Source: a virus | Lineage: Duplodnaviria; Caudoviricetes | Length of the DNA stretch: 64,000 nucleotides | Virus record (IMG/VR): IMGVR_UViG_3300042567_001420 | Direction: 5' to 3' (one strand) | Shown here: piece by piece, positions 2,843 to 48,378 of the stretch | How positions within the stretch are numbered: the stretch's first letter is position 1 | Layout: every line of letters starts with the position of its first letter | Notes under the pieces: generated by a model | The model's input: only the letters and a program-made list of their open reading frames with translations | What the model was told of the DNA's origin: nothing | Databases searched by the model: none | Program-made: the position numbers and the translations under genes

Positions 2843-3469
2843 TTAACCCGGTTGTAGGAATATAAGGTGTGTCAATCTACTGTTGTTAACGTCTGTTCCA
2901 AAATGTTGGCCCATATGGTGCCATAACCAGGGCCTGAACAGCACTGCCCGATTAAACTTAATGTCTACATTCAATTCGGTTTTCCATAAATCAGTATTTA
3001 TACCCTCAGTTTCAAAGAAATTTCGCATATCTTCAAATGTTTTTACTCCAATTGCGTCACTTTCGGTGTAATCTTTAGGGGCAATAGTCATACCGGTTCT
3101 TTTATGGGAAACAATTTTTGTCCCGGCATCTCTACCTTCATAATGCTCGGGCAGACTTAAATAAACTACTCCTGCCCATGTTTGCCCGGGGGTTGGATCA
3201 AAATGCACAATTTGTTTTGCAATGTCTTTTTCTCTAGTATGTCTGAAATATCCGTTGGCTGAAGGCTTTGCAGGCTTTACGGTTTCGCCAGTTGCTTTAC
3301 ATAACATTTTTGTAATGGTTGTATCCCAATACGATCTCGTGGTGTTTAGCCCTGGATAGTTGGGTGTCAGGCCTTCTGGCTCATACTCCGCGTTCAATGC
3401 CATATCCCGCATCATATAAGGATCGGAATAAAAATCATCTATAACTATTACTTTTTTATCAAATTCCAT
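2843..3469 (-). CDS. 2OG-Fe(II) oxygenase-like protein (DUF6445-like)
   Basis: Start reassigned to MEFDKKVIVIDDFYSDP; HxD (VHFD), WAGVVYL, FNRAVLF and distal His (WHH). Confidence 0.7.
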   Translation of the reverse strand: MEFDKKVIVIDDFYSDPYMMRDMALNAEYEPEGLTPNYPGLNTTRSYWDTTITKMLCKATGETVKPAKPSANGYFRHTREKDIAKQIVHFDPTPGQTWAGVVYLSLPEHYEGRDAGTKIVSHKRTGMTIAPKDYTESDAIGVKTFEDMRNFFETEGINTDLWKTELNVDIKFNRAVLFRPWLWHHMGQHFGTDVNNSRLTHLIFLQPG

Positions 3470-4241
3470 TTTTAATATCAAACTGTGAAAAATATTTACA
3501 TAAACTCTCACCAAGTACTTCTTGTGCAGAATCACTGGTCTTTTCTAATTTACCTCTGATTGTATGCAGATCTTTCAATCCCCATGCAGTATCTTTGGCT
3601 TCACCGCAAGTATTTGTGATACTATCGAACTTGTGGTCATATCTATTTATTTCCAAGAAATCGTATATCTTATTAATTGTGTCTTGAGGTGTTTGTACTA
3701 GATCATCATACTGCACAAAATATAAATTTTCTTTATAATTTTTCATGCCTATCTGTAAACTTTCCCACGGATCTCTAATATAGGATTCCCACAGTTCCAT
3801 TGCTCTTGTGTTTGTATTTATCGGCTTGCGCTTTTTTTTCAATGCTGCATCAATAAAATTGTTTGGATCTTTATTAAGTAGCTTGATGAAACTTGTGACA
3901 ACTTCCGCAACCGGTCTGTTGGTACAAATGACCTTGGGGTTTTCAGAAATGTGTAGCTTTGCTGGCATAACATTCCTTGCCCAAGCTCTGTGCTTGTCTA
4001 TAATATGAGGCTTCTTTATGCTCTCATAATATGCTTTGGGTAACGCAGTGTATATGGATGCAGATTGATTTTCAACATCAAAGGTATATTGCTGAGTAAC
4101 TCTATTGAGTGCCTCATTTTGCAGGCATAACAAATCCAATAAAGGACTTGTGGGGGAAACATATACCTCTGGATTTTGATTTAAAATTGATCCAAGCAAT
4201 GTTGAACCTGATCTAGGTAAGCCGCTTAAAAAGTATATCAT
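3459..4241 (-). CDS. Sulfotransferase family protein
   Basis: PAPS-binding loop GLPRSGSTLL, DKHRAW, VQYDDLV..P. Confidence 0.85.
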   Translation of the reverse strand: MIYFLSGLPRSGSTLLGSILNQNPEVYVSPTSPLLDLLCLQNEALNRVTQQYTFDVENQSASIYTALPKAYYESIKKPHIIDKHRAWARNVMPAKLHISENPKVICTNRPVAEVVTSFIKLLNKDPNNFIDAALKKKRKPINTNTRAMELWESYIRDPWESLQIGMKNYKENLYFVQYDDLVQTPQDTINKIYDFLEINRYDHKFDSITNTCGEAKDTAWGLKDLHTIRGKLEKTSDSAQEVLGESLCKYFSQFDIKNGI

Positions 4242-5995
4242 TGTATATTCATTCCCAAAAGTTTTTCTCTAACTTTCACAAAAGGTGCTTCCCAATCTCC
4301 GTATTTTTCTTGGCGCATCAAGGTAAAGCAATCATAATAGGGAGTACGATCTCCATCTAATGCATATAAGAAGTATGGCATAATTGGAGTAACAACCCAG
4401 GTATCAACACCCATAGCACCAGCAAGGTGACTGACAGATGTGCATGAACTAATTACCAGATCACATTCGGCAACTGCTTTACGAGTATCTTCCCATGTAT
4501 TTAATGGAACTTTTCTAACCCAGAATGGACATTCATCTTCGCCCTCATCTCTTTGCAAGCTAATAAACTCTGCATTGATACCTCGAAGTGCCTCAAACAT
4601 TAATTCTGATGGGAACTTCTTATGATGCTCATGCTCAAATTGTGGGTTGCCTTGCCATCTCAATCCAATACGCATCTTTTTGCCTTTGATTGAGAATGGC
4701 TTTCTAATGTAAGGTGCGCCGGATATGTCGTCAAGTTCTAATCCCAACGGAACAGCTGCAGACATACCTGCTACCCAGAAATCATGATATACTCCATAGA
4801 TTGATTCGTGTTGCACAACTGCGGATACACCCTCAACATCTATAAACAAAGATGCCAACATACCAGTACAACATACCATGACTTTACATCCTCGATCTGC
4901 AATAACTTTTGCATAACGAACTTGGTGTATTTGATCTCCCAATCCACCTTCAAGGTATAGCATTACGATACCTTTTGTTTTTCCATCCCACATAGGCATA
5001 GGTGTATCTGGTCTACTGTTTCCAAACACACCAACAATCCGACCACGATCCATTAGGCTATAACCTTTTTGGATTTCACCTTGACGCAAATAATACCAAC
5101 CTCTGTTATAAGCTGCTCTATGGTTAAGTGGTTCAGCTGCTTCTATTTTTTGAGAAAGTCTCCAACCTTCATCGAAGTCTCCTCGGGTACTTGCTTCGAG
5201 TTGAAAATCAAGATCGTGTTTTTCTTGTACTGTTCTTGGAGTTTTTAACCAGAACTCACCCTGACAGAATGTGGGATAATGATGCTTTAATAATTCTCTC
5301 GGGTCTTGATTATGCTGACGCTGTAGTACAGGTTTAATATCATGCATACCTGCATACCCGTGAATGTTCTCATCGTCTTCTGATACTGTAGAACCATCAA
5401 TATTCCCAAAGTCATAATTAAAATCTGGTAGACCCAAGAACTCATGAATACGTTTTAGTTCTTTCTTGGGATCTTTAACTAAATCCTCATACTCAACAAA
5501 CAGGAAATTTTCTGGGGCAAATTTATACCCTTCTTGCAATGAGATATAAGCTGCCTTCAAGTGATCCATTAACTGACCTGAATAGATAAGTTGATCTAAG
5601 TCTGTGGGTTTTGCCACACGAACAAAAGATGCAGCACAATCGGGCACGGAACGAACCGTTGCAATAACTTTAGGTCTTCTTTCAAGAACCGCAGACATGG
5701 CTGCCATAATTTGTGGAATAGGCCATCCGCGAGATTTATCTATAACAACGGGCTTGTCTACATCTGAGTAAAACGCATCAATAGTCCCTCGCATTGTTGC
5801 CGCCAATTTAGAACGATCCGCATCGTTCTCATTTAATAACCCAGCACTATGCCAAGTATTTGCCAAGCCATCTAAGGCATGGACCAACCCAGATGTTGTA
5901 CTAACATGGGTCATTGGATTTTGATTTAAAATGGCTGCCAGAACTGTAGAACCAGAGCGGGGAATGCCTGCAAGAAAATGTAGTTGTTTATTCAT
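4238..5995 (-). CDS. Sulfotransferase + TPR + GT9-like glycosyltransferase fusion
   Basis: N-terminal GIPRSGSTVL/DKSRGW/VEYEDLV; TPR-like RAAYNRGWYYL; C-terminal EGGLGDQIH, DLVISSCTSVSHLAGAMGV. Confidence 0.75.
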   Translation of the reverse strand: MNKQLHFLAGIPRSGSTVLAAILNQNPMTHVSTTSGLVHALDGLANTWHSAGLLNENDADRSKLAATMRGTIDAFYSDVDKPVVIDKSRGWPIPQIMAAMSAVLERRPKVIATVRSVPDCAASFVRVAKPTDLDQLIYSGQLMDHLKAAYISLQEGYKFAPENFLFVEYEDLVKDPKKELKRIHEFLGLPDFNYDFGNIDGSTVSEDDENIHGYAGMHDIKPVLQRQHNQDPRELLKHHYPTFCQGEFWLKTPRTVQEKHDLDFQLEASTRGDFDEGWRLSQKIEAAEPLNHRAAYNRGWYYLRQGEIQKGYSLMDRGRIVGVFGNSRPDTPMPMWDGKTKGIVMLYLEGGLGDQIHQVRYAKVIADRGCKVMVCCTGMLASLFIDVEGVSAVVQHESIYGVYHDFWVAGMSAAVPLGLELDDISGAPYIRKPFSIKGKKMRIGLRWQGNPQFEHEHHKKFPSELMFEALRGINAEFISLQRDEGEDECPFWVRKVPLNTWEDTRKAVAECDLVISSCTSVSHLAGAMGVDTWVVTPIMPYFLYALDGDRTPYYDCFTLMRQEKYGDWEAPFVKVREKLLGMNIQ

Positions 5996-6052
5996 AAAAT
6001 CACCTAATTATTGTGGTATATACTAATATTTTATCGGATTTAAGATATTTTG

Positions 6053-6829
6053 TCAATACTTATCCCACCATTCTCTCCAATTTATAAATGGATCCTTTTC
6101 GGTATCGAATTGCATATGTAGTGCAAGACTTGGAATCGGTATAAGCAAAAAATATCCGCGTGTTTTAAACAACTGATTAATGGATTCATCTTCCATTGTT
6201 GGGGATACTTTACTTGTTCCCATTTTATAAAACAAATCCCATTCGTTTTTTATAATGCTAATGTGCGTCATAAAACAACTTGAAGTCAAGATGTTTGTTC
6301 TCCAATGTCTACCTGAAGATTGTACTACGTATGAGGGAATTTGTGTATTTACCGGAATGTAATGATAGGGATCATTGAATGGGAAAATACTAACAGGTTT
6401 ATTTAATCTGGTGCTGGCATCTACCCAGGTGTTGACCATATCACGAATTGCGTTTATTTCATATAGGTAATCATCTTGAACAAAGTATACTAGGTCTTTA
6501 CCAAATTGTTTGCCGTGTTCGTAACATCTAAGAATTGAGGGCATAATGCCTCTTGTTTCCAATTGCGTAATGTTATATGGTACATTGCATTTAGATGCAA
6601 TACTTATTAGTTTATCGAATGAAGCCTCATCCGAATGATCGTCAAATACTTGCAGGGAAATATCAACGTGCGGTAATAGATCAGATGCATAGTTAATCGA
6701 TTCAACAAGACTTGTAACGCATCTGCGCATAATTTCAGCTTTGTCTGTACCGCAGTATCTTTGTTTTGTAGTATCTCTGCTTTTTACGGAATGTGTCTGC
6801 AATACTACTAATAGATTCAATTTATTCAT
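6053..6829 (-). CDS. GT-A fold (GT2-like) glycosyltransferase
   Basis: VFDDHS, GIMPSILRC, VYFVQDDYL (DxD-like motif). Confidence 0.7.
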   Translation of the reverse strand: MNKLNLLVVLQTHSVKSRDTTKQRYCGTDKAEIMRRCVTSLVESINYASDLLPHVDISLQVFDDHSDEASFDKLISIASKCNVPYNITQLETRGIMPSILRCYEHGKQFGKDLVYFVQDDYLYEINAIRDMVNTWVDASTRLNKPVSIFPFNDPYHYIPVNTQIPSYVVQSSGRHWRTNILTSSCFMTHISIIKNEWDLFYKMGTSKVSPTMEDESINQLFKTRGYFLLIPIPSLALHMQFDTEKDPFINWREWWDKY

Positions 6830-7371
6830 TCTTTAATTACCTTCAATTTAATATTAACTTCCATGATAATGTTATTGTGTTCTTGCACATATCTTTCAAC
6901 TTCTTCTTCGGGTCTGCCGTTGAATATTTTATAATATCTTTGATCAGGAATATTTTCCACTTCTGCAAGCTCAAAGTCTACATTGTAATAATGCGCCAAT
7001 CTAGAAGCAGATTCTCCTCGTTGTTTGCATAGATCATTGTATTTTTTACTAAAAAGCCCTAATCCTTCAGCAGTTATTGGTCTACGATGTGTTGGATCAT
7101 TTGCAAAATATTCATGTCTATGATGTGGTACTACAATATCAATTATAGCATCATGCTTACAAACACGATATAGTTCTTTGATTGCGTGAAAATACCCTTC
7201 GCCCATGTGCTCTAACACATGATGCGCAATTACTTCTTCTACGGAGTTATCTTCAAACGGCCATGTGTCGTTTTCGAGATCAAATTTAAAATCAGGATTA
7301 CAATTATCATCGTAATCACAATTTAAAAATCCATCATATTGTTTATCACCTGCTCCAATATTTAATTTCAT
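6826..7371 (-). CDS. Class I SAM-dependent methyltransferase
   Basis: MKLNIGAG motif I; WPFEDNSVEEVIAHHVLEH; DPTH. Confidence 0.85.
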   Translation of the reverse strand: MKLNIGAGDKQYDGFLNCDYDDNCNPDFKFDLENDTWPFEDNSVEEVIAHHVLEHMGEGYFHAIKELYRVCKHDAIIDIVVPHHRHEYFANDPTHRRPITAEGLGLFSKKYNDLCKQRGESASRLAHYYNVDFELAEVENIPDQRYYKIFNGRPEEEVERYVQEHNNIIMEVNIKLKVIKE

Positions 7372-44023: not shown

Positions 44024-44052
44024 ATTATACAGCATTTAGCTGTATCTGTCAA
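44024..44052 (-). promoter_or_regulatory. sigma70-type early promoter
   Basis: TTGACA-N17-TATAAT, perfect consensus. Confidence 0.85.
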
Positions 44053-44761: not shown

Positions 44762-44835
44762 TGGAGCGGGGTAGGAGAATCGAACTCCTCGCTTTAGCTT
44801 GGAAGGCTAAGGTATTACCACTATACGAACCCCGC
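44762..44835 (-). tRNA. tRNA-Gly(TCC)
   Basis: Cloverleaf, TTAGC-CT-TCC-AA-GCTAA, encoded CCA. Confidence 0.95.
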
Positions 44836-44837
44836 AT

Positions 44838-45617
44838 TTACAATATTACTTCATTTGTTTTGCGCATATCTGCACAAGTATACTCCTGATAACTTGCCTT
44901 TAAAATTTCTGGCATCGGAATAATTTCAATCTCCGCATGATATTCTTCTGCAACCATATCCGCAACATCATAAAAACTCATAGTTTTACCTGTGCCCATA
45001 TTAAAGATTCCAGATCTACTTGATTCTAAAAACTTTAAATGATAATCCACAATAGATTTCACATGAACAAAATCTCTACGATAATTTTCACTATTCTCAA
45101 ATAATTTAATCTTACCTGTTTCTATGGCTTGTTTCTTAAACTGAGCAAATGGGCTTGCCTGATTGCCTTTATGTTCTTCACCTTCCCAAGCCCATACATT
45201 AAAATATCTAAATCCTTGCACAATGGGACTATCATGATGATGTTGTTTTACATATCTTTCAAACAAATACTTTGACCAAGCATAAGGCGTTCTTGGATCC
45301 AACGGAGAATTTTCGCAAAACTCTTTATTCAATCCATACACACTTGCAGAACTAGAATACTGTAAATTAACTCCGAATGTTTTACACTCATCGTATAAAT
45401 CCATGGAGAATTCGTAATTTTGTCTTAGTACTTTATCAATATCTTTTTCGGTTGTTGAACTAATAGCACCAGCATGAATAACCCATTCAAAATCCATAAC
45501 ACCTGGTCTCGGACCATCATCATATTCATACGTTGCAACATCATCACCTCGATCGCGCAAGGCCGTCAATAGTCTAGAACCAATAAATCCTCTATGACCT
45601 GTTAGCAATATTTTCAT
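44838..45617 (-). CDS. hldD: ADP-L-glycero-D-manno-heptose 6-epimerase-like NAD-dependent epimerase
   Basis: GHRGFIGS, HAGAISSTTE, YSSSASVYG, YAWSK, FRYFNV, RRDFVHV. Confidence 0.85.
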   Translation of the reverse strand: MKILLTGHRGFIGSRLLTALRDRGDDVATYEYDDGPRPGVMDFEWVIHAGAISSTTEKDIDKVLRQNYEFSMDLYDECKTFGVNLQYSSSASVYGLNKEFCENSPLDPRTPYAWSKYLFERYVKQHHHDSPIVQGFRYFNVWAWEGEEHKGNQASPFAQFKKQAIETGKIKLFENSENYRRDFVHVKSIVDYHLKFLESSRSGIFNMGTGKTMSFYDVADMVAEEYHAEIEIIPMPEILKASYQEYTCADMRKTNEVIL

Positions 45618-45906
45618 TGTAATATACCTCGCTGTTTACCGCTTTATCATCGATCCAAATATCGTATGCGGGTTTACCTAATTTTAATGTTGTATACTTA
45701 ACTTGCCAGTTGGCAAATTGTTGTCTTGTAAGAGTTGTCCAATCAATACCAGAGTTACCACCTCTTGCTGTCCAATAATGAATCTCATTTCCCGCATCAA
45801 ACAGTTTATTAAAATGTGCAATTCGATCCGCAAAAGGTTGAGCACTATGATAATCACCTACAGTATTACTACAAATTGTGCCATCAATATCTACAAGGTA
45901 TTTCAT
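45592..45906 (-). CDS. HAD-superfamily phosphatase
   Basis: VDIDGTIC motif I, WTARG, GKP..D.WIDDKA. Confidence 0.8.
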   Translation of the reverse strand: MKYLVDIDGTICSNTVGDYHSAQPFADRIAHFNKLFDAGNEIHYWTARGGNSGIDWTTLTRQQFANWQVKYTTLKLGKPAYDIWIDDKAVNSEVYYNENIANRS

Positions 45907-46259
45907 GTCTGACTATCTCCAGGTGCAACTCTATAATTATCTTCTACCGAATCAGGTGTACTAACTTCAATGATAGTACCTTCTTCCTGACAAACCAATT
46001 GATGCGGTAAACATGGAGGATTGTGCCAAGTATCGCCCGATTTAAGATACTTAATTTGTTCTTTGGCTGTTTTGGTATCAATCCATTTGACAAAGAATAA
46101 CCCGTCAAGTACATACCATGATTCATCTTTTTCAGAATGAAAGTGCATACTAAATTTTGCACCAGAGTTGAACTTCATCAACTTGCCGCAATATTTATCG
46201 TTAGTAGCCCAGATTAATTCGTGACCCCAACCTTTTTTAACAAAACCCTCAAGCCTCAT
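45903..46259 (-). CDS. Cupin-domain protein (sugar-isomerase-like)
   Basis: KGWGHE, SMHFHSEKDESW, PCLPHQL, EVSTPD. Confidence 0.8.
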   Translation of the reverse strand: MRLEGFVKKGWGHELIWATNDKYCGKLMKFNSGAKFSMHFHSEKDESWYVLDGLFFVKWIDTKTAKEQIKYLKSGDTWHNPPCLPHQLVCQEEGTIIEVSTPDSVEDNYRVAPGDSQT

Positions 46260-47035
46260 TTTATTTCCTTTAGTGTAGGTGCATAATTGCCAACATGCTG
46301 TACTGTAATTGACGATGCTTTATTTGCAAATCTGATTGCATCTTCAATACTATTCGTCACCAGATATTGATAAGCTAAGGCGGCTAAGAATGTATCACCT
46401 GCCCCACACGCATCAAGAACATCAACTTTTTTGGTTGCGTAATTTGTGTTGACATACTCACTCCGTAACATTGCACCATTGGCACCCAACGTCACAATCA
46501 TATCCCATGCATACGACTCAGCCGCTTCAAATTCTTTTTCGTTGATTTTAACGTAAGCACCATTAAACGCTTCTAAGTTTCTTTTCTTCGTATCGATAAA
46601 AACTGGCCCATTAAAATTGTGAATCAGATTTTGAATGTGTTCGTAAGTTAAAAAGCCTTTATTGTAATCAGACACAACAACAGCATCATAACCTTCCGTA
46701 TCTACAATTCCATCCCATGGCTCTATCTTTGGCTCATCATCTATTCTAACAATTTGATATCCAGATTTTTCGTCTATGATTCTAGTCTTTGTGATCCTAG
46801 GTTCACCATTAATGCCAGCAGACGGATTTGAAATTATGGTTGTGTTACACCCAAGTTTATGCAGATTGCTATGGACATTTCGTGCCATACCAAGTCTGGT
46901 TTCTTTTCGTGTTAGTTTGATTATGGGAATTGGGGCTTCTGGACTCAATCTATCGATTGTTCCATATTGATAAACATCTATGCAAGAATCACCGAGCAAT
47001 AATATTTTGAATTGTTTTTGTTGTTGAATATCCAT
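46256..47035 (-). CDS. Heptose kinase (RfaE domain I/HldA-like, PfkB family)
   Basis: DVYQYG...LSPEAPIP, VSDYNKG, VTLGANG, DACGAGDTF. Confidence 0.85.
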   Translation of the reverse strand: MDIQQQKQFKILLLGDSCIDVYQYGTIDRLSPEAPIPIIKLTRKETRLGMARNVHSNLHKLGCNTTIISNPSAGINGEPRITKTRIIDEKSGYQIVRIDDEPKIEPWDGIVDTEGYDAVVVSDYNKGFLTYEHIQNLIHNFNGPVFIDTKKRNLEAFNGAYVKINEKEFEAAESYAWDMIVTLGANGAMLRSEYVNTNYATKKVDVLDACGAGDTFLAALAYQYLVTNSIEDAIRFANKASSITVQHVGNYAPTLKEIK

Positions 47036-47384
47036 TTACCAAATCCACAAATCTAATCTCTTTACAATATTGACTTCCCACAATAGGCTTATCTTTATAA
47101 TCACTACCCTTAACCATTATAGGGGAATACTGTTTACAAAGCATTTCTAATTCTTTAGCTGAATCAAATATATGAACAGCACTAACTGCTCTTAAATTTT
47201 GTAACAGATGTTTTCTATCATCTTGATTATTAATAGGTCTACTATTGCCTTTTAATTCTTTAACTCGTCTATCCGAATCAATACAGACTATAAGTTGTTG
47301 ACCACAACCTCTGGCATAATTAAGTAATTCGATATGTCCTCTATGGACAATATCAAAGGTGCCGTTGACAAGAATATTAATCAT
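46989..47384 (-). CDS. Heptose-phosphate nucleotidyltransferase (RfaE domain II/HldC-like)
   Basis: NGTFDIVHRGH, SDRRVKELKG..RPIN, VKGSDY, GYSTT. Confidence 0.85.
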   Translation of the reverse strand: MINILVNGTFDIVHRGHIELLNYARGCGQQLIVCIDSDRRVKELKGNSRPINNQDDRKHLLQNLRAVSAVHIFDSAKELEMLCKQYSPIMVKGSDYKDKPIVGSQYCKEIRFVDLVNGYSTTKTIQNIIAR

Positions 47385-47390
47385 ATAAAA

Positions 47391-47467
<77 letters not shown>

Positions 47468-47484
47468 GTTGTTTCTATTAAAAA

Positions 47485-47569
47485 TGGTACCTGAGACCGG
47501 AATCGAACCGGTACACCTTGCGGCGAGAGATTTTAAGTCTCTTGTGTCTACCTATTTCACCACTCAGGC
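47485..47569 (-). tRNA. tRNA-Leu(TAA)
   Basis: Long variable arm, AGAGA-CT-TAA-AA-TCTCT. Confidence 0.95.
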
Positions 47570-47575
47570 GTTTGG

Positions 47576-47872
47576 TTATCCTCGGTAGTCTACATCTATT
47601 TCCGACCAAGTACGCAGCTTATCGAATTTTCTTTGTTTAAACTGAATTACATTATTATAAGAAATAACTTTGTGCGAATCTAACAATTCAATCATTGCGA
47701 GAACATCGCCCAATTCTTCTTCAAGATGGTTTGTATTTGTTTTGCTTGGGGTATTTGGATGTGTATCAAACAATCCGAATCGAAATACTTTCGATGTTGC
47801 TTGAATTACTTCTGCGCATTCTTCTTGTAAAATCTGAAGAATGGCTGCTTGATCTTTGTTAAGTTCATTCAT
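47576..47872 (-). CDS. MazG-like all-alpha NTP pyrophosphohydrolase
   Basis: LQEECAEVIQ...LEEELGDVLAMI (EExxE...EExxD). Confidence 0.75.
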   Translation of the reverse strand: MNELNKDQAAILQILQEECAEVIQATSKVFRFGLFDTHPNTPSKTNTNHLEEELGDVLAMIELLDSHKVISYNNVIQFKQRKFDKLRTWSEIDVDYRG

Positions 47873-47891: not shown

Positions 47892-47920
47892 ATTATAACA
47901 GAATACGTGTTATATGTCAA
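47892..47920 (-). promoter_or_regulatory. sigma70-type early promoter
   Basis: TTGACA-N17-TATAAT. Confidence 0.85.
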
Positions 47921-48370: not shown

Positions 48371-48378
48371 TATTTATA
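48371..48378 (-). promoter_or_regulatory. T4-type late promoter TATAAATA
   Basis: Exact consensus upstream of 47917-48348. Confidence 0.65.

What the first reader, a model, noticed from the sequence alone, without database searches (positions are those of the whole stretch)
44838..47384. ADP-heptose-type operon with a cupin and a small HAD in place of GmhA and GmhB
Seen: five overlapping genes (HldC-like, HldA-like, cupin, HAD phosphatase, HldD-like) embedded between tRNAs. Established: the canonical route is GmhA (SIS isomerase), HldE kinase, GmhB, HldE transferase, HldD. No SIS-fold gene is in the window. Inference: the cupin is a non-orthologous isomerase and the HAD replaces GmhB, or the cluster makes a different nucleotide sugar. 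Possible uses are virion glycosylation, DNA modification or host LPS remodelling.
Basis: partly seen in the sequence, partly recalled or inferred. Interest (0 to 1): 0.65.

Follow-up and report, generated by a model that had tools for sequence, protein, structure and literature searches.

The report
Phage heptose operon with cupin isomerase
An uncultured freshwater T4-like phage carries a tightly packed five-gene operon that very probably makes the activated seven-carbon sugar ADP-heptose, using a small metal-binding cupin and a miniature phosphatase in place of the two textbook bacterial enzymes GmhA and GmhB; no enzyme assay has tested this yet.

Summary
Five overlapping minus-strand genes lie between tRNA-Met and tRNA-Gly: HldC-like, HldA-like, a 118-aa cupin, a 104-aa HAD and HldD-like.

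No GmhA (SIS) gene is in the window. None was found in 160 related viral loci, two complete cyanophage genomes, or a 364-kb complete phage genome that has the module.

The cupin is in 75 of 80 loci found through HldA. It is the slowest-evolving gene of the module and has a conserved His/His/Glu/His metal site. Its closest specific families are mannose-6-phosphate and D-lyxose isomerases. In other sequences it is fused to HldC or to HAD phosphatases. Caulobacter phage Cr30 shows the opposite pattern: canonical GmhA and no cupin.

The mini-HAD's closest characterised relative is phage HY126 AfhF. AfhF removes the distal phosphate from arabinose-1,5-bisphosphate, which is the same reaction type as GmhB. 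Three phosphatase types (mini-HAD, NT5C-like, GmhB-like) occupy this slot and never occur together.

Best reading: a self-sufficient ADP-heptose pathway starting from sedoheptulose-7-phosphate. The acceptor is unknown, and no glycosyltransferase was found in the window.

This is a new variant of a known pathway. Homologous genes are already listed in cyanophages, but with wrong labels. This scan has noted the same idea on at least 57 other genomes. Nothing has been assayed.

The parts
47892..47920 (-). Perfect sigma-70 consensus promoter (TTGACA, 17 nt, TATAAT, with TG). It lies upstream of MazG, tRNA-Leu, tRNA-Met and the operon, and is the likely early promoter of the unit.
   Evidence: 12 of 12 hexamer matches. 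Function is inferred.
47576..47872 (-). MazG-like nucleotide pyrophosphohydrolase gene (98 aa). It is the first gene after the promoter, probably co-transcribed, and is not part of the sugar pathway.
   Evidence: PF03819, 1.2e-06.
47391..47569 (-). tRNA-Leu(taa) 47485-47569 and tRNA-Met(cat) 47391-47467, directly upstream of the operon.
46989..47384 (-). HldC-like heptose-1-phosphate adenylyltransferase (131 aa). The HxGH motif (FDIVHRGH) and the C-terminal STT motif are present.
   Evidence: TIGR02199 5.5e-34, 117 bits, below the 181.5 cut-off; best PDB match is Burkholderia HldC 5x9q, 5e-16.
46256..47035 (-). HldA-like heptose-7-phosphate 1-kinase (259 aa), a compact PfkB-type kinase. It has the N-terminal GDxxxDxY...SPEAP motif and the C-terminal GAGD motif.
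   Evidence: TIGR02198 6.6e-46, 157 bits, below the 345 cut-off; family invariants; best PDB match is Burkholderia HldA 4e84, 1.5e-17.
45903..46259 (-). 118-aa single-domain metallo-cupin, the proposed sedoheptulose-7-phosphate isomerase (a GmhA analogue). Conserved residues are W11, G12, E14, K26, H39, H41, K44, E46, H86, E98, D107 and R110.
   Evidence: invariant columns; AF2 pLDDT 96.
45592..45906 (-). 104-aa capless mini-HAD phosphatase of the BcbF/AfhF type, the proposed heptose-1,7-bisphosphate 7-phosphatase (a GmhB analogue). Its HAD motifs are DIDGT, T46, K78 and D86-D87.
   Evidence: TIGR01689 4.2e-05; 9iqw 8.9e-09; 1xpj 5.2e-05; 9iqw AfhF Z 11.6.
44838..45617 (-). HldD-like ADP-glycero-manno-heptose 6-epimerase (259 aa). 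About 25 residues are missing from the Rossmann domain. The GxxGxxG motif and the SSS, YxxxK and HKG catalytic positions align with E. coli HldD.
   Evidence: TIGR02197 2.4e-65, 221 bits, below the 274.6 cut-off; 1eq2, 1e-45, alignment shown.
44762..44835 (-). tRNA-Gly(tcc), 2 nt after the HldD stop codon.

Best explanation

Proposed steps:
1. The metal-dependent cupin isomerises sedoheptulose-7-phosphate to D-glycero-D-manno-heptose-7-phosphate. This is the seven-carbon analogue of the fructose-6-P to mannose-6-P reaction that cupin phosphomannose isomerases carry out. (Inferred.)
2. The HldA-like kinase phosphorylates C1. (Family-level homology.)
3. The AfhF-type mini-HAD removes the 7-phosphate. 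(Inferred from the reaction type of its characterised homologue.)
4. The HldC-like enzyme adenylylates the 1-phosphate. (Family-level homology.)
5. The HldD-like enzyme epimerises C6. (Family-level homology; catalytic residues conserved.)

The genes are translationally coupled. They probably sit in an early transcription unit driven by a perfect sigma-70 promoter, together with tRNA genes.

The product is then used by a heptosyltransferase encoded elsewhere in the phage genome or by the host. The target would be a cell-envelope glycan or a virion component. That acceptor is not identified.
For: Gene identities.

No GmhA:
- None in the window.
- None in 160 related viral loci.
- None in the complete genomes of cyanophages S-CAM1 and Sf-CH8 or in three large viral contigs.
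- None in a 100%-complete 364-kb phage genome that has cupin-HldC-HldA-HldD.

Linkage of the cupin to the pathway:
- It is present in 75 of 80 loci found through HldA. Of the five without it, two are cut at the contig end.
- All 31 cyanophage or marine-virus records with HldA also have the cupin.
- Gene order is shuffled across at least five architectures while the set stays together.
- The cupin is the most conserved module gene: median 72-77% identity, against 50-58% for the others.

Fusions in other sequences: mini-HAD+cupin (P0143, P0144, P0217), NT5C-like HAD+cupin (P0139) and HldC+cupin (P0207).

Similarity of the cupin:
- 48 of 70 family members match PF01050 (mannose-6-P isomerase C-terminal) and 30 of 70 match D-lyxose isomerase.
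- hhalign to the E. coli ManC cupin domain gives probability 93%.
- The small Thermococcus phosphomannose isomerases are structural matches, Z 14.3-14.6.

Complementary case: T4-like Caulobacter phage Cr30 has canonical GmhA with HldA, a glycosyltransferase and an epimerase, and no cupin.

Phosphatase slot:
- Mini-HAD, NT5C-like HAD and bona fide GmhB-like genes (NF006506, 137-143 bits) alternate and never co-occur.
- The mini-HAD's nearest solved relative is AfhF (9iqw), a Mg-dependent arabinose-1,5-bisphosphate 5-phosphatase.

Heptose context in related loci: GT9 heptosyltransferase-like neighbours, and an HldD above the equivalog cut-off at 301 bits.

A review states that cyanobacterial LPS lacks heptose (PMC4390846). 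Cyanophages carrying the full five-gene set would therefore need a complete pathway of their own.
Against: No biochemical data exist for the cupin or for this mini-HAD.

Fold and profile similarity do not separate sugar-phosphate isomerases from nucleotide-sugar epimerases. The top structural match is the CapF cupin domain (Z 15.8), and 26 of 70 family members match the CapF-like family PF14667.

The cupin sometimes occurs without HldA or HldC. Examples are a 100%-complete 354-kb phage genome, and loci where the three other genes are missing but the cupin remains.

Only about a third of the loci encode any recognisable phosphatase.

All five window proteins score below the NCBIfam equivalog cut-offs.

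Hosts may supply GmhA. I could not test host genomes, and the host of this phage is unknown.

No glycosyltransferase was found in the 64-kb window.
Confidence: 0.58

Rival explanations
1. The cupin works at the nucleotide-sugar level. It would be a CapF/WbuC/RmlC-like epimerase, or another tailoring enzyme, acting with the HldD-like dehydrogenase to make a modified ADP-heptose. The isomerase step would then come from the host's GmhA.
For: - The best structural match is the CapF cupin domain, a UDP-sugar 3-epimerase: Z 15.8, rmsd 1.9, 109 residues.
- TIGR04366 cupin_WbuC matches at 8e-04, and PF14667 matches 26 of 70 family members.
- Some loci hold the cupin next to a full-score HldD, a carbamoyltransferase and a GT9-like gene, without HldA or HldC nearby.
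- The cupin persists in genomes without HldA.
Against: - The cupin follows HldA and HldC more closely than it follows HldD: 75 and 76 of 80 loci against 60 of 80. At least ten loci have cupin, HldA and HldC without HldD.
- Its fusions are with enzymes of the sugar-phosphate stage and with HldC, never with the dehydrogenase.
- Isomerase families (PF01050 in 48 members, Lyx_isomer in 30) match more members than the CapF-like family does.
- According to a review, cyanophage hosts have no heptose in their LPS.
- The architecture without HldA or HldC still carries a GmhB-like phosphatase, which only makes sense at the sugar-phosphate stage.
Confidence: 0.2
2. The operon makes a different nucleotide sugar by the same isomerase, 1-kinase, distal phosphatase and nucleotidyltransferase logic. 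Candidates are an ADP-hexose or ADP-pentose, or a non-manno heptose. The sugar might decorate phage DNA bases, as UDP-arabinose does in RB69, DLP3 and HY126.
For: - The mini-HAD's only characterised relative, AfhF, acts on arabinose-1,5-bisphosphate in a DNA-arabinosylation pathway of T4-like phages.
- All five proteins fall below the equivalog cut-offs.
- A MazG-type nucleotide pyrophosphohydrolase gene heads the same transcription unit.
- No heptosyltransferase is present in the window.
Against: - The kinase, transferase and epimerase match the heptose-specific HldA, HldC and HldD models best, by wide margins. The arabinose pathway instead uses an APH-like kinase fused to a MurU-like transferase, and a SIS isomerase.
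- An HldD-type C6 epimerase needs a sugar with a stereocentre at C6, which means a heptose (established chemistry).
- True GmhB-like phosphatases and GT9-like transferases occur in sister loci.
- No thymidylate-synthase-like base hydroxylase or hydroxymethylase family was seen in the window.
Confidence: 0.12
3. The cupin is not part of the sugar pathway at all. It would be, for example, a small-molecule dioxygenase or a binding protein, as the RefSeq label 'cysteine dioxygenase' suggests, and it merely hitch-hikes with the cassette.
For: - The generic cupin hits include oxalate decarboxylase and quercetinase.
- The cupin occurs alone in some phages.
Against: - It co-occurs with HldA in about 95% of loci despite shuffled gene order, and it is fused repeatedly to pathway enzymes.
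- It overlaps both neighbouring genes by 4 nt inside the operon.
Confidence: 0.05

Closest known systems
[quoted passage not shown]
   Same: The same five chemical steps are proposed. HldA-, HldC- and HldD-like proteins are clear homologues; the best PDB matches are 4e84, 5x9q and 1eq2. The kinase and transferase are split, as in Burkholderia.
   Different: There is no SIS-fold GmhA and no HAD-IIIA GmhB. A 118-aa cupin and a 104-aa capless HAD stand in their places. The kinase and epimerase are about 50 residues shorter than the bacterial enzymes. All proteins score below the equivalog cut-offs. The operon is phage-borne and embedded among tRNA genes.
Heptose or 'LPS' gene set of T4-like cyanophages (P-SSM2, S-SM2, S-SSM7, S-CAM1, S-CAM3, P-TIM68, SynMITS9220M01; noted in PMC7378029)
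   Same: All five proteins are homologous at 33-56% identity and lie in one cluster.
   Different: In those records the mini-HAD is labelled 'phosphoheptose isomerase'. The cupin is labelled 'putative nucleotidyltransferase' or 'cysteine dioxygenase'. I read these labels as annotation errors. The window's phage is a distant freshwater relative, with a DNA polymerase about 52% identical.
AfhF of E. coli phage HY126 (PDB 9iqw) and its homologues RB69 gp51 and DLP3 gp81, in the UDP-arabinose pathway for 5-hydroxycytosine arabinosylation (He et al. 2026, as summarised in PMC13326640)
   Same: It belongs to the same mini-HAD family: phmmer 8.9e-09, about 30% identity, Z 11.6. It has the same role in an isomerase, 1-kinase, distal phosphatase and nucleotidyltransferase scheme.
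   Different: AfhF acts on a pentose bisphosphate. Its partners are a SIS isomerase and an APH-like kinase fused to a MurU-like transferase, and its product goes onto DNA. Here the partners are the cupin, HldA, HldC and HldD.
Cupin-type phosphomannose isomerases (C-terminal domain of type II PMI/ManC, PF01050; single-domain Thermococcus PMIs 7zvm and 7zvy) and D-lyxose isomerases
   Same: Same fold and size, the same His/His/Glu/His metal motif and a shared GWG/PWG N-terminal motif. hhalign to the E. coli ManC cupin gives probability 93%. These enzymes catalyse the analogous ketose to manno-aldose isomerisation.
   Different: The window protein scores 19.1 bits on PF01050, below the 23.6 cut-off. 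The proposed substrate has seven carbons. No activity has been measured.
Caulobacter phage Cr30 heptose cluster
   Same: It is a T4-like phage with HldA-like kinase, epimerase and glycosyltransferase genes in one cluster.
   Different: It uses a canonical GmhA, 32% identical to E. coli GmhA, and has no cupin. This is the complementary solution.

Membership tests
ADP-heptose pathway (as a system) | GmhA: a SIS-fold sedoheptulose-7-phosphate isomerase (TIGR00441 / PF13580) | tested here: not met
   tblastn with E. coli GmhA finds nothing in the window at E 10. There is no SIS family among the scanned ORFs, and none in related loci or genomes.
ADP-heptose pathway (as a system) | [quoted passage not shown] | tested here: inconclusive
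   It is the best-matching family (6.6e-46, 157 bits) but falls below the 345-bit equivalog cut-off. The SPEAP and GAGD motifs are conserved. The best PDB match is Burkholderia HldA.
ADP-heptose pathway (as a system) | GmhB: a HAD-IIIA heptose-1,7-bisphosphate 7-phosphatase (TIGR00213 / NF006506) | tested here: not met
   The window HAD matches only TIGR01689, with no GmhB model. tblastn with E. coli GmhB gives only chance hits. Sister loci do carry GmhB-like genes in this slot.
ADP-heptose pathway (as a system) | HldC / HldE domain II: heptose-1-phosphate adenylyltransferase (TIGR02199) | tested here: inconclusive
   It is the best-matching family (5.5e-34, 117 bits) but falls below the 181.5 cut-off. 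The HxGH and STT motifs are present. The best PDB match is Burkholderia HldC 5x9q.
ADP-heptose pathway (as a system) | HldD: ADP-glycero-manno-heptose 6-epimerase (TIGR02197) with a Ser/Tyr/Lys triad and a second catalytic Lys | tested here: inconclusive
   The score is 2.4e-65 and 221 bits, below the 274.6 cut-off. The alignment to 1eq2 shows SSS, YxxxK and HKG conserved, with about 25 residues missing from the Rossmann domain. The residue roles are from my own knowledge of E. coli HldD.
Type II phosphomannose isomerase cupin domain (PF01050) | Score over the Pfam gathering threshold, plus the metal-binding motif | tested here: not met
   The window cupin scores 19.1 bits against the 23.6 cut-off. 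48 of 70 family members match at E 0.01 or better, and some exceed the cut-off, for example P0139 at 31 bits. hhalign to the ManC cupin gives 93%. It is a relative of this family, not a member.
CapF / WbuC-type nucleotide-sugar epimerase cupins (TIGR04366, PF14667) | Score over the curated cut-off | tested here: not met
   TIGR04366 scores 19.2 bits against a cut-off of 42. Structural similarity is high (Z 15.8) but lies within 1-2 Z units of many unrelated cupins.
BcbF/EcbF/AfhF mini-HAD phosphatases (TIGR01689; PDB 9iqw, 1xpj) | HAD motifs I-IV in a capless protein of about 100-135 aa, with sequence similarity to family members | tested here: met
   The motifs DIDGT, T46, K78 and DD86-87 are invariant or nearly invariant in the family. 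phmmer gives 9iqw at 8.9e-09 and 1xpj at 5.2e-05. Structural Z scores are 11.6 and 10.6, well above the next match at 7.8. TIGR01689 itself scores only 23.5 bits against its 162 cut-off, so the protein is a distant member.
BcbF/EcbF/AfhF mini-HAD phosphatases | Hydrolysis of the distal phosphate of a sugar 1,omega-bisphosphate | not testable with these tools
   This activity is shown only for AfhF, as reported in PMC13326640 citing He et al. 2026. The substrate of the window enzyme is inferred.

The most novel reading that the evidence does not exclude
The small cupin founds a second, structurally unrelated class of sedoheptulose-7-phosphate isomerase, used by thousands of aquatic phages. Together with an AfhF-type mini-phosphatase it would let a phage make ADP-heptose from central metabolism without any host pathway, including in hosts whose own envelope contains no heptose. 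That would imply a still unknown phage-directed heptosylation target on the virion, the cell surface or the DNA.
Probability: 0.5. Interest if true: 0.72.

Novelty: new variant of a known kind. Interest (0 to 1): 0.58.

Why it matters
If the cupin is a sedoheptulose-7-phosphate isomerase, several things follow:
- The first committed step of heptose biosynthesis would have a second, unrelated enzyme solution. It is missed by all current annotation, and the neighbouring HAD wrongly carries the 'phosphoheptose isomerase' label in GenBank cyanophage records.
- A very abundant auxiliary gene set of marine and freshwater T4-like phages would be explained.
- The 'missing GmhA' in genome-based pathway reconstructions would be resolved.
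- The open question would become sharper: what do these phages heptosylate, especially in cyanobacteria, which are reported to lack LPS heptose?

The mini-HAD result links two phage sugar-activation routes, arabinose for DNA and heptose, through one phosphatase family. Every step can be tested directly with standard enzymology.

Tried and rejected
Genomic context of the many cupin homologues in long, possibly cellular, contigs could not be read.
- The single genome-contig scan gave one 1.5-kb MAG contig (L003), so cellular occurrences were not assessed. No whole genome is held for the window.
- Host genomes, such as marine Synechococcus, could not be searched for gmhA, hldE or gmhB because no handle was available.
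- Fold searches for the cupin (Foldseek and VIA) and profile searches against PDB sequences return generic cupins within 1-2 Z units of each other. They do not decide between isomerase and epimerase.
- Conserved neighbours without a Pfam or NCBIfam match (local clusters c5, c7, c20, c21) were considered as hidden isomerases. They flank the cassette even where it is absent, and they are not in the window or in cyanophages, so I set them aside without folding them.
- tblastn of GT9-like, carbamoyltransferase, C-methyltransferase and other glycosyltransferase neighbours from sister loci found nothing in the window.
- Literature searches found no paper proposing a cupin sedoheptulose-7-phosphate isomerase or a characterised phage ADP-heptose pathway. 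A search for bcbF/ecbF gave only unrelated acronyms.
- An ADP-mannose reading (cupin as a plain PMI) was rejected because an HldD-type C6 epimerase has no stereocentre to act on in a hexose.
Full report
**Observation**

The window comes from an uncultured freshwater T4-like myovirus. Its family-B DNA polymerase is about 52% identical to those of Synechococcus myoviruses. No close nucleotide relative is in the phage collection.

Five ORFs lie on the minus strand at the stated coordinates. They overlap by 47, 4, 4 and 26 nt, which suggests translational coupling.

| Gene | Coordinates | Length | Best family match |
|---|---|---|---|
| HldC-like | 46989-47384 | 131 aa | TIGR02199, 5.5e-34 |
| HldA-like | 46256-47035 | 259 aa | TIGR02198, 6.6e-46 |
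| Cupin | 45903-46259 | 118 aa | Cupin_2, 5.8e-07 |
| HAD | 45592-45906 | 104 aa | TIGR01689, 4.2e-05 |
| HldD-like | 44838-45617 | 259 aa | TIGR02197, 2.4e-65 |

- All five scores are below the NCBIfam equivalog cut-offs.
- For three proteins the best solved relatives are the heptose enzymes themselves: Burkholderia HldA 4e84, Burkholderia HldC 5x9q and E. coli HldD 1eq2.
- Signature motifs are intact. These are HxGH and STT in HldC, SPEAP and GAGD in HldA, and GxxGxxG, SSS, YxxxK and HKG in HldD.
- tRNA-Met ends 6 nt before the HldC start, and tRNA-Gly begins 2 nt after the HldD stop.
- A perfect sigma-70 promoter lies at 47920-47892 on the minus strand (TTGACA, 17 nt, TATAAT, with TG). It precedes MazG, tRNA-Leu, tRNA-Met and the operon.
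- A TATAAATA late-type motif lies at 48371-48378.
- From these motifs I infer that expression is early and perhaps also late.

**No GmhA**

- tblastn with E. coli GmhA finds nothing in any frame of the window at E 10.
- Pfam scans of the window ORFs show no SIS family.
- No whole genome is held for the window, so I used relatives.
- SIS_2 is absent from the complete genomes of cyanophages S-CAM1 and Sf-CH8 and from three large viral contigs.
- TIGR00441 is absent from five further viral records. One is a 364-kb, 100%-complete genome that carries cupin-HldC-HldA-HldD.
- In the 50,697-record phage collection, GmhA-like sequences occur in 13 records, none of them a cyanophage.

**The cupin belongs to the module**

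The cupin family is very large. There are more than 4,400 close homologues in the protein database and more than 570 viral contigs.

| Feature | 80 loci found through the cupin | 80 loci found through HldA |
|---|---|---|
| Cupin | 80 | 75 |
| HldA | 59 | 80 |
| HldC | 67 | 76 |
| HldD | 51 | 60 |
| GmhA | 0 | 0 |

- Two of the five HldA-seeded loci without a cupin are cut at the contig end.
- Gene order differs across at least five architectures while the set stays together.
- All 31 cyanophage or marine-virus records with HldA also have the cupin.
- The cupin is the slowest-evolving member. Its median identity to the window protein is 72-77%, against 50-58% for HldA, HldC and HldD, and this holds even in loci chosen through HldA.
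- Fused forms exist among cluster representatives. These are mini-HAD+cupin (P0143, P0144, P0217), NT5C-like HAD+cupin (P0139) and HldC+cupin (P0207). Some could be gene-calling artefacts, but five independent cases with three different partners are unlikely to be.
- T4-like Caulobacter phage Cr30 shows the complementary pattern. It has a canonical GmhA next to HldA, a glycosyltransferase and an epimerase, and no cupin.

**What the cupin looks like**

- The AlphaFold model is confident (pLDDT 96).
- The family conserves the classical His/His/Glu/His metal site (H39, H41, E46, H86). It also conserves W11-G12-x-E14, K26, K44, E98, D107 and R110.
- Fold searches give generic cupins. The CapF cupin domain scores Z 15.8, the Thermococcus phosphomannose isomerases 14.3-14.6, KdgF 14.3 and D-lyxose isomerase 13.7. 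These do not separate functions.
- Among function-specific Pfam families, 48 of 70 members match the type II phosphomannose isomerase C-terminal domain. 30 of 70 match D-lyxose isomerase and 26 of 70 match the CapF-like PF14667.
- hhalign to the cupin domain of E. coli ManC gives 93% probability over 95 columns. The PWG/GWG, lysine, metal and IEV motifs are in register.
- Phosphomannose isomerase converts a ketose phosphate to a manno-configured aldose phosphate. GmhA does exactly this on the seven-carbon substrate (established chemistry).

I therefore read the cupin as a sedoheptulose-7-phosphate isomerase, by inference only.

**The phosphatase**

- The 104-aa protein has all four HAD motifs.
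- It has no Pfam model, and its homologues are all called 'hypothetical'.
- In GenBank cyanophage records its 40-42% identical homologue is labelled 'phosphoheptose isomerase'. PMC7378029 repeats that label. I read it as an annotation error.
- Its best solved relatives are 9iqw (8.9e-09; Z 11.6) and 1xpj (Z 10.6). These stand well above T4 Pnkp phosphatase (7.8) and the GmhB structures (7.2-7.5).
- 9iqw is AfhF of E. coli phage HY126. It is a Mg-dependent phosphatase that converts arabinofuranose-1,5-bisphosphate to the 1-phosphate on the way to UDP-arabinose (PMC13326640, summarising He et al. 2026). Removing the distal phosphate of a sugar 1,omega-bisphosphate is the GmhB reaction type.
- In sister loci the same slot holds the mini-HAD, an NT5C-like HAD, or genuine GmhB-like proteins (NF006506, 137-143 bits). 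Two types never occur together.
- Only about a third of loci encode any recognisable phosphatase. The step can therefore probably be borrowed from the host.
- The mini-HAD is present in the cyanophage versions, whose hosts are reported to lack LPS heptose (PMC4390846).

**Product and use**

Three observations argue for heptose rather than a hexose or pentose:
- An HldD-type C6 epimerase is present.
- An HldD above the equivalog cut-off (301 bits) sits next to the cupin in one architecture.
- GT9 heptosyltransferase-like genes lie in sister loci and in two 'cupin-only' jumbo phages.

Other neighbours in sister loci suggest tailoring of the glycan. They include a carbamoyltransferase, a sugar C-methyltransferase and UDP-galactopyranose mutase. 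The window itself holds no recognisable glycosyltransferase, so the acceptor is unknown.

**Caveats**

- The cupin persists in loci where HldD, HldC and HldA are missing. It also occurs in a complete 354-kb genome with no HldA.
- This fits a phage that boosts only the first step of a host pathway. It fits equally well a function downstream of ADP-heptose.
- The nucleotide-sugar epimerase rival is therefore kept at about 0.2.
- A different sugar, or a DNA-directed use, is kept at about 0.12, prompted by the AfhF precedent.

**Novelty**

- The gene set is known and listed in cyanophage genome papers.
- In the searchable literature I found no proposal that the cupin is the missing isomerase, and no characterised phage ADP-heptose pathway.
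- Earlier notes of this scan reach the same reading on at least 57 other genomes. They are not independent evidence.
  - the AfhF link for the mini-HAD;
  - the mutually exclusive three-way occupancy of the phosphatase slot;
  - the mini-HAD-cupin fusions;
  - the Cr30 counter-example;
  - the conservation ranking of the module genes.

Noticed in passing
L004:4044-6553 and L005:4622-7147 compared with window 44838-47384: The closest relatives share 97-99% identical HldC, cupin and HldD, but their HldA is only 51-52% identical, and in L005 the HAD is 59% identical. An 88% identical HldA sits on other contigs (L084, L085). This looks like gene-by-gene allele replacement inside a translationally coupled operon.
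   Followed up: partly
window 2843-7371, minus strand: This cluster holds two sulfotransferase-domain genes (3459-4241, 260 aa; 4238-5995, 585 aa). With them are a DUF6445 protein (2843-3535) and a methyltransferase (6826-7371). The cluster sits among RCC1-repeat and glycine-rich structural-looking genes, so it may be a second glycan- or protein-tailoring module.
   Followed up: partly
window 47892-47920 and 44024-44052, minus strand: There are two perfect 12-of-12 sigma-70 consensus promoters with 17-nt spacers. One lies before MazG, the tRNAs and the heptose operon. The other lies after the omega-like gene.
   Followed up: no
L002:4676-5336 (S-CAM1, KU686194) and L001:4661-5336 (Sf-CH8): GenBank and RefSeq labels in cyanophages look wrong. 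The mini-HAD is called 'phosphoheptose isomerase'. The cupin is called 'putative nucleotidyltransferase' or 'cysteine dioxygenase'.
   Followed up: yes
L045, L048 and L053 (cupin at about 6001-6351), and L039:5575-5925: In these loci the cupin remains between its usual flanking genes while HldD, HldC and HldA are missing. A 354-kb complete jumbo phage has the cupin and a GT9-like gene but no HldA.
   Followed up: partly
L018:8448-9245 and equivalent loci L027, L037, L038: One architecture carries a second, longer (265-269 aa) HldC-like cytidylyltransferase paralogue a few genes downstream of HldC-HldA-cupin, next to a UvdE endonuclease gene.
   Followed up: no
L026:3543-10730 and similar loci L028, L046, L065: Next to the neck and tail-sheath-stabiliser genes lies an architecture of cupin, full-score HldD, GmhB-like phosphatase, carbamoyltransferase and GT9-like gene, with no HldA or HldC within 6 kb. 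This hints at a carbamoylated heptose.
   Followed up: partly
window 47576-47872, minus strand: A 98-aa MazG-like pyrophosphohydrolase gene is the first gene of the same probable transcription unit as the heptose operon.
   Followed up: no
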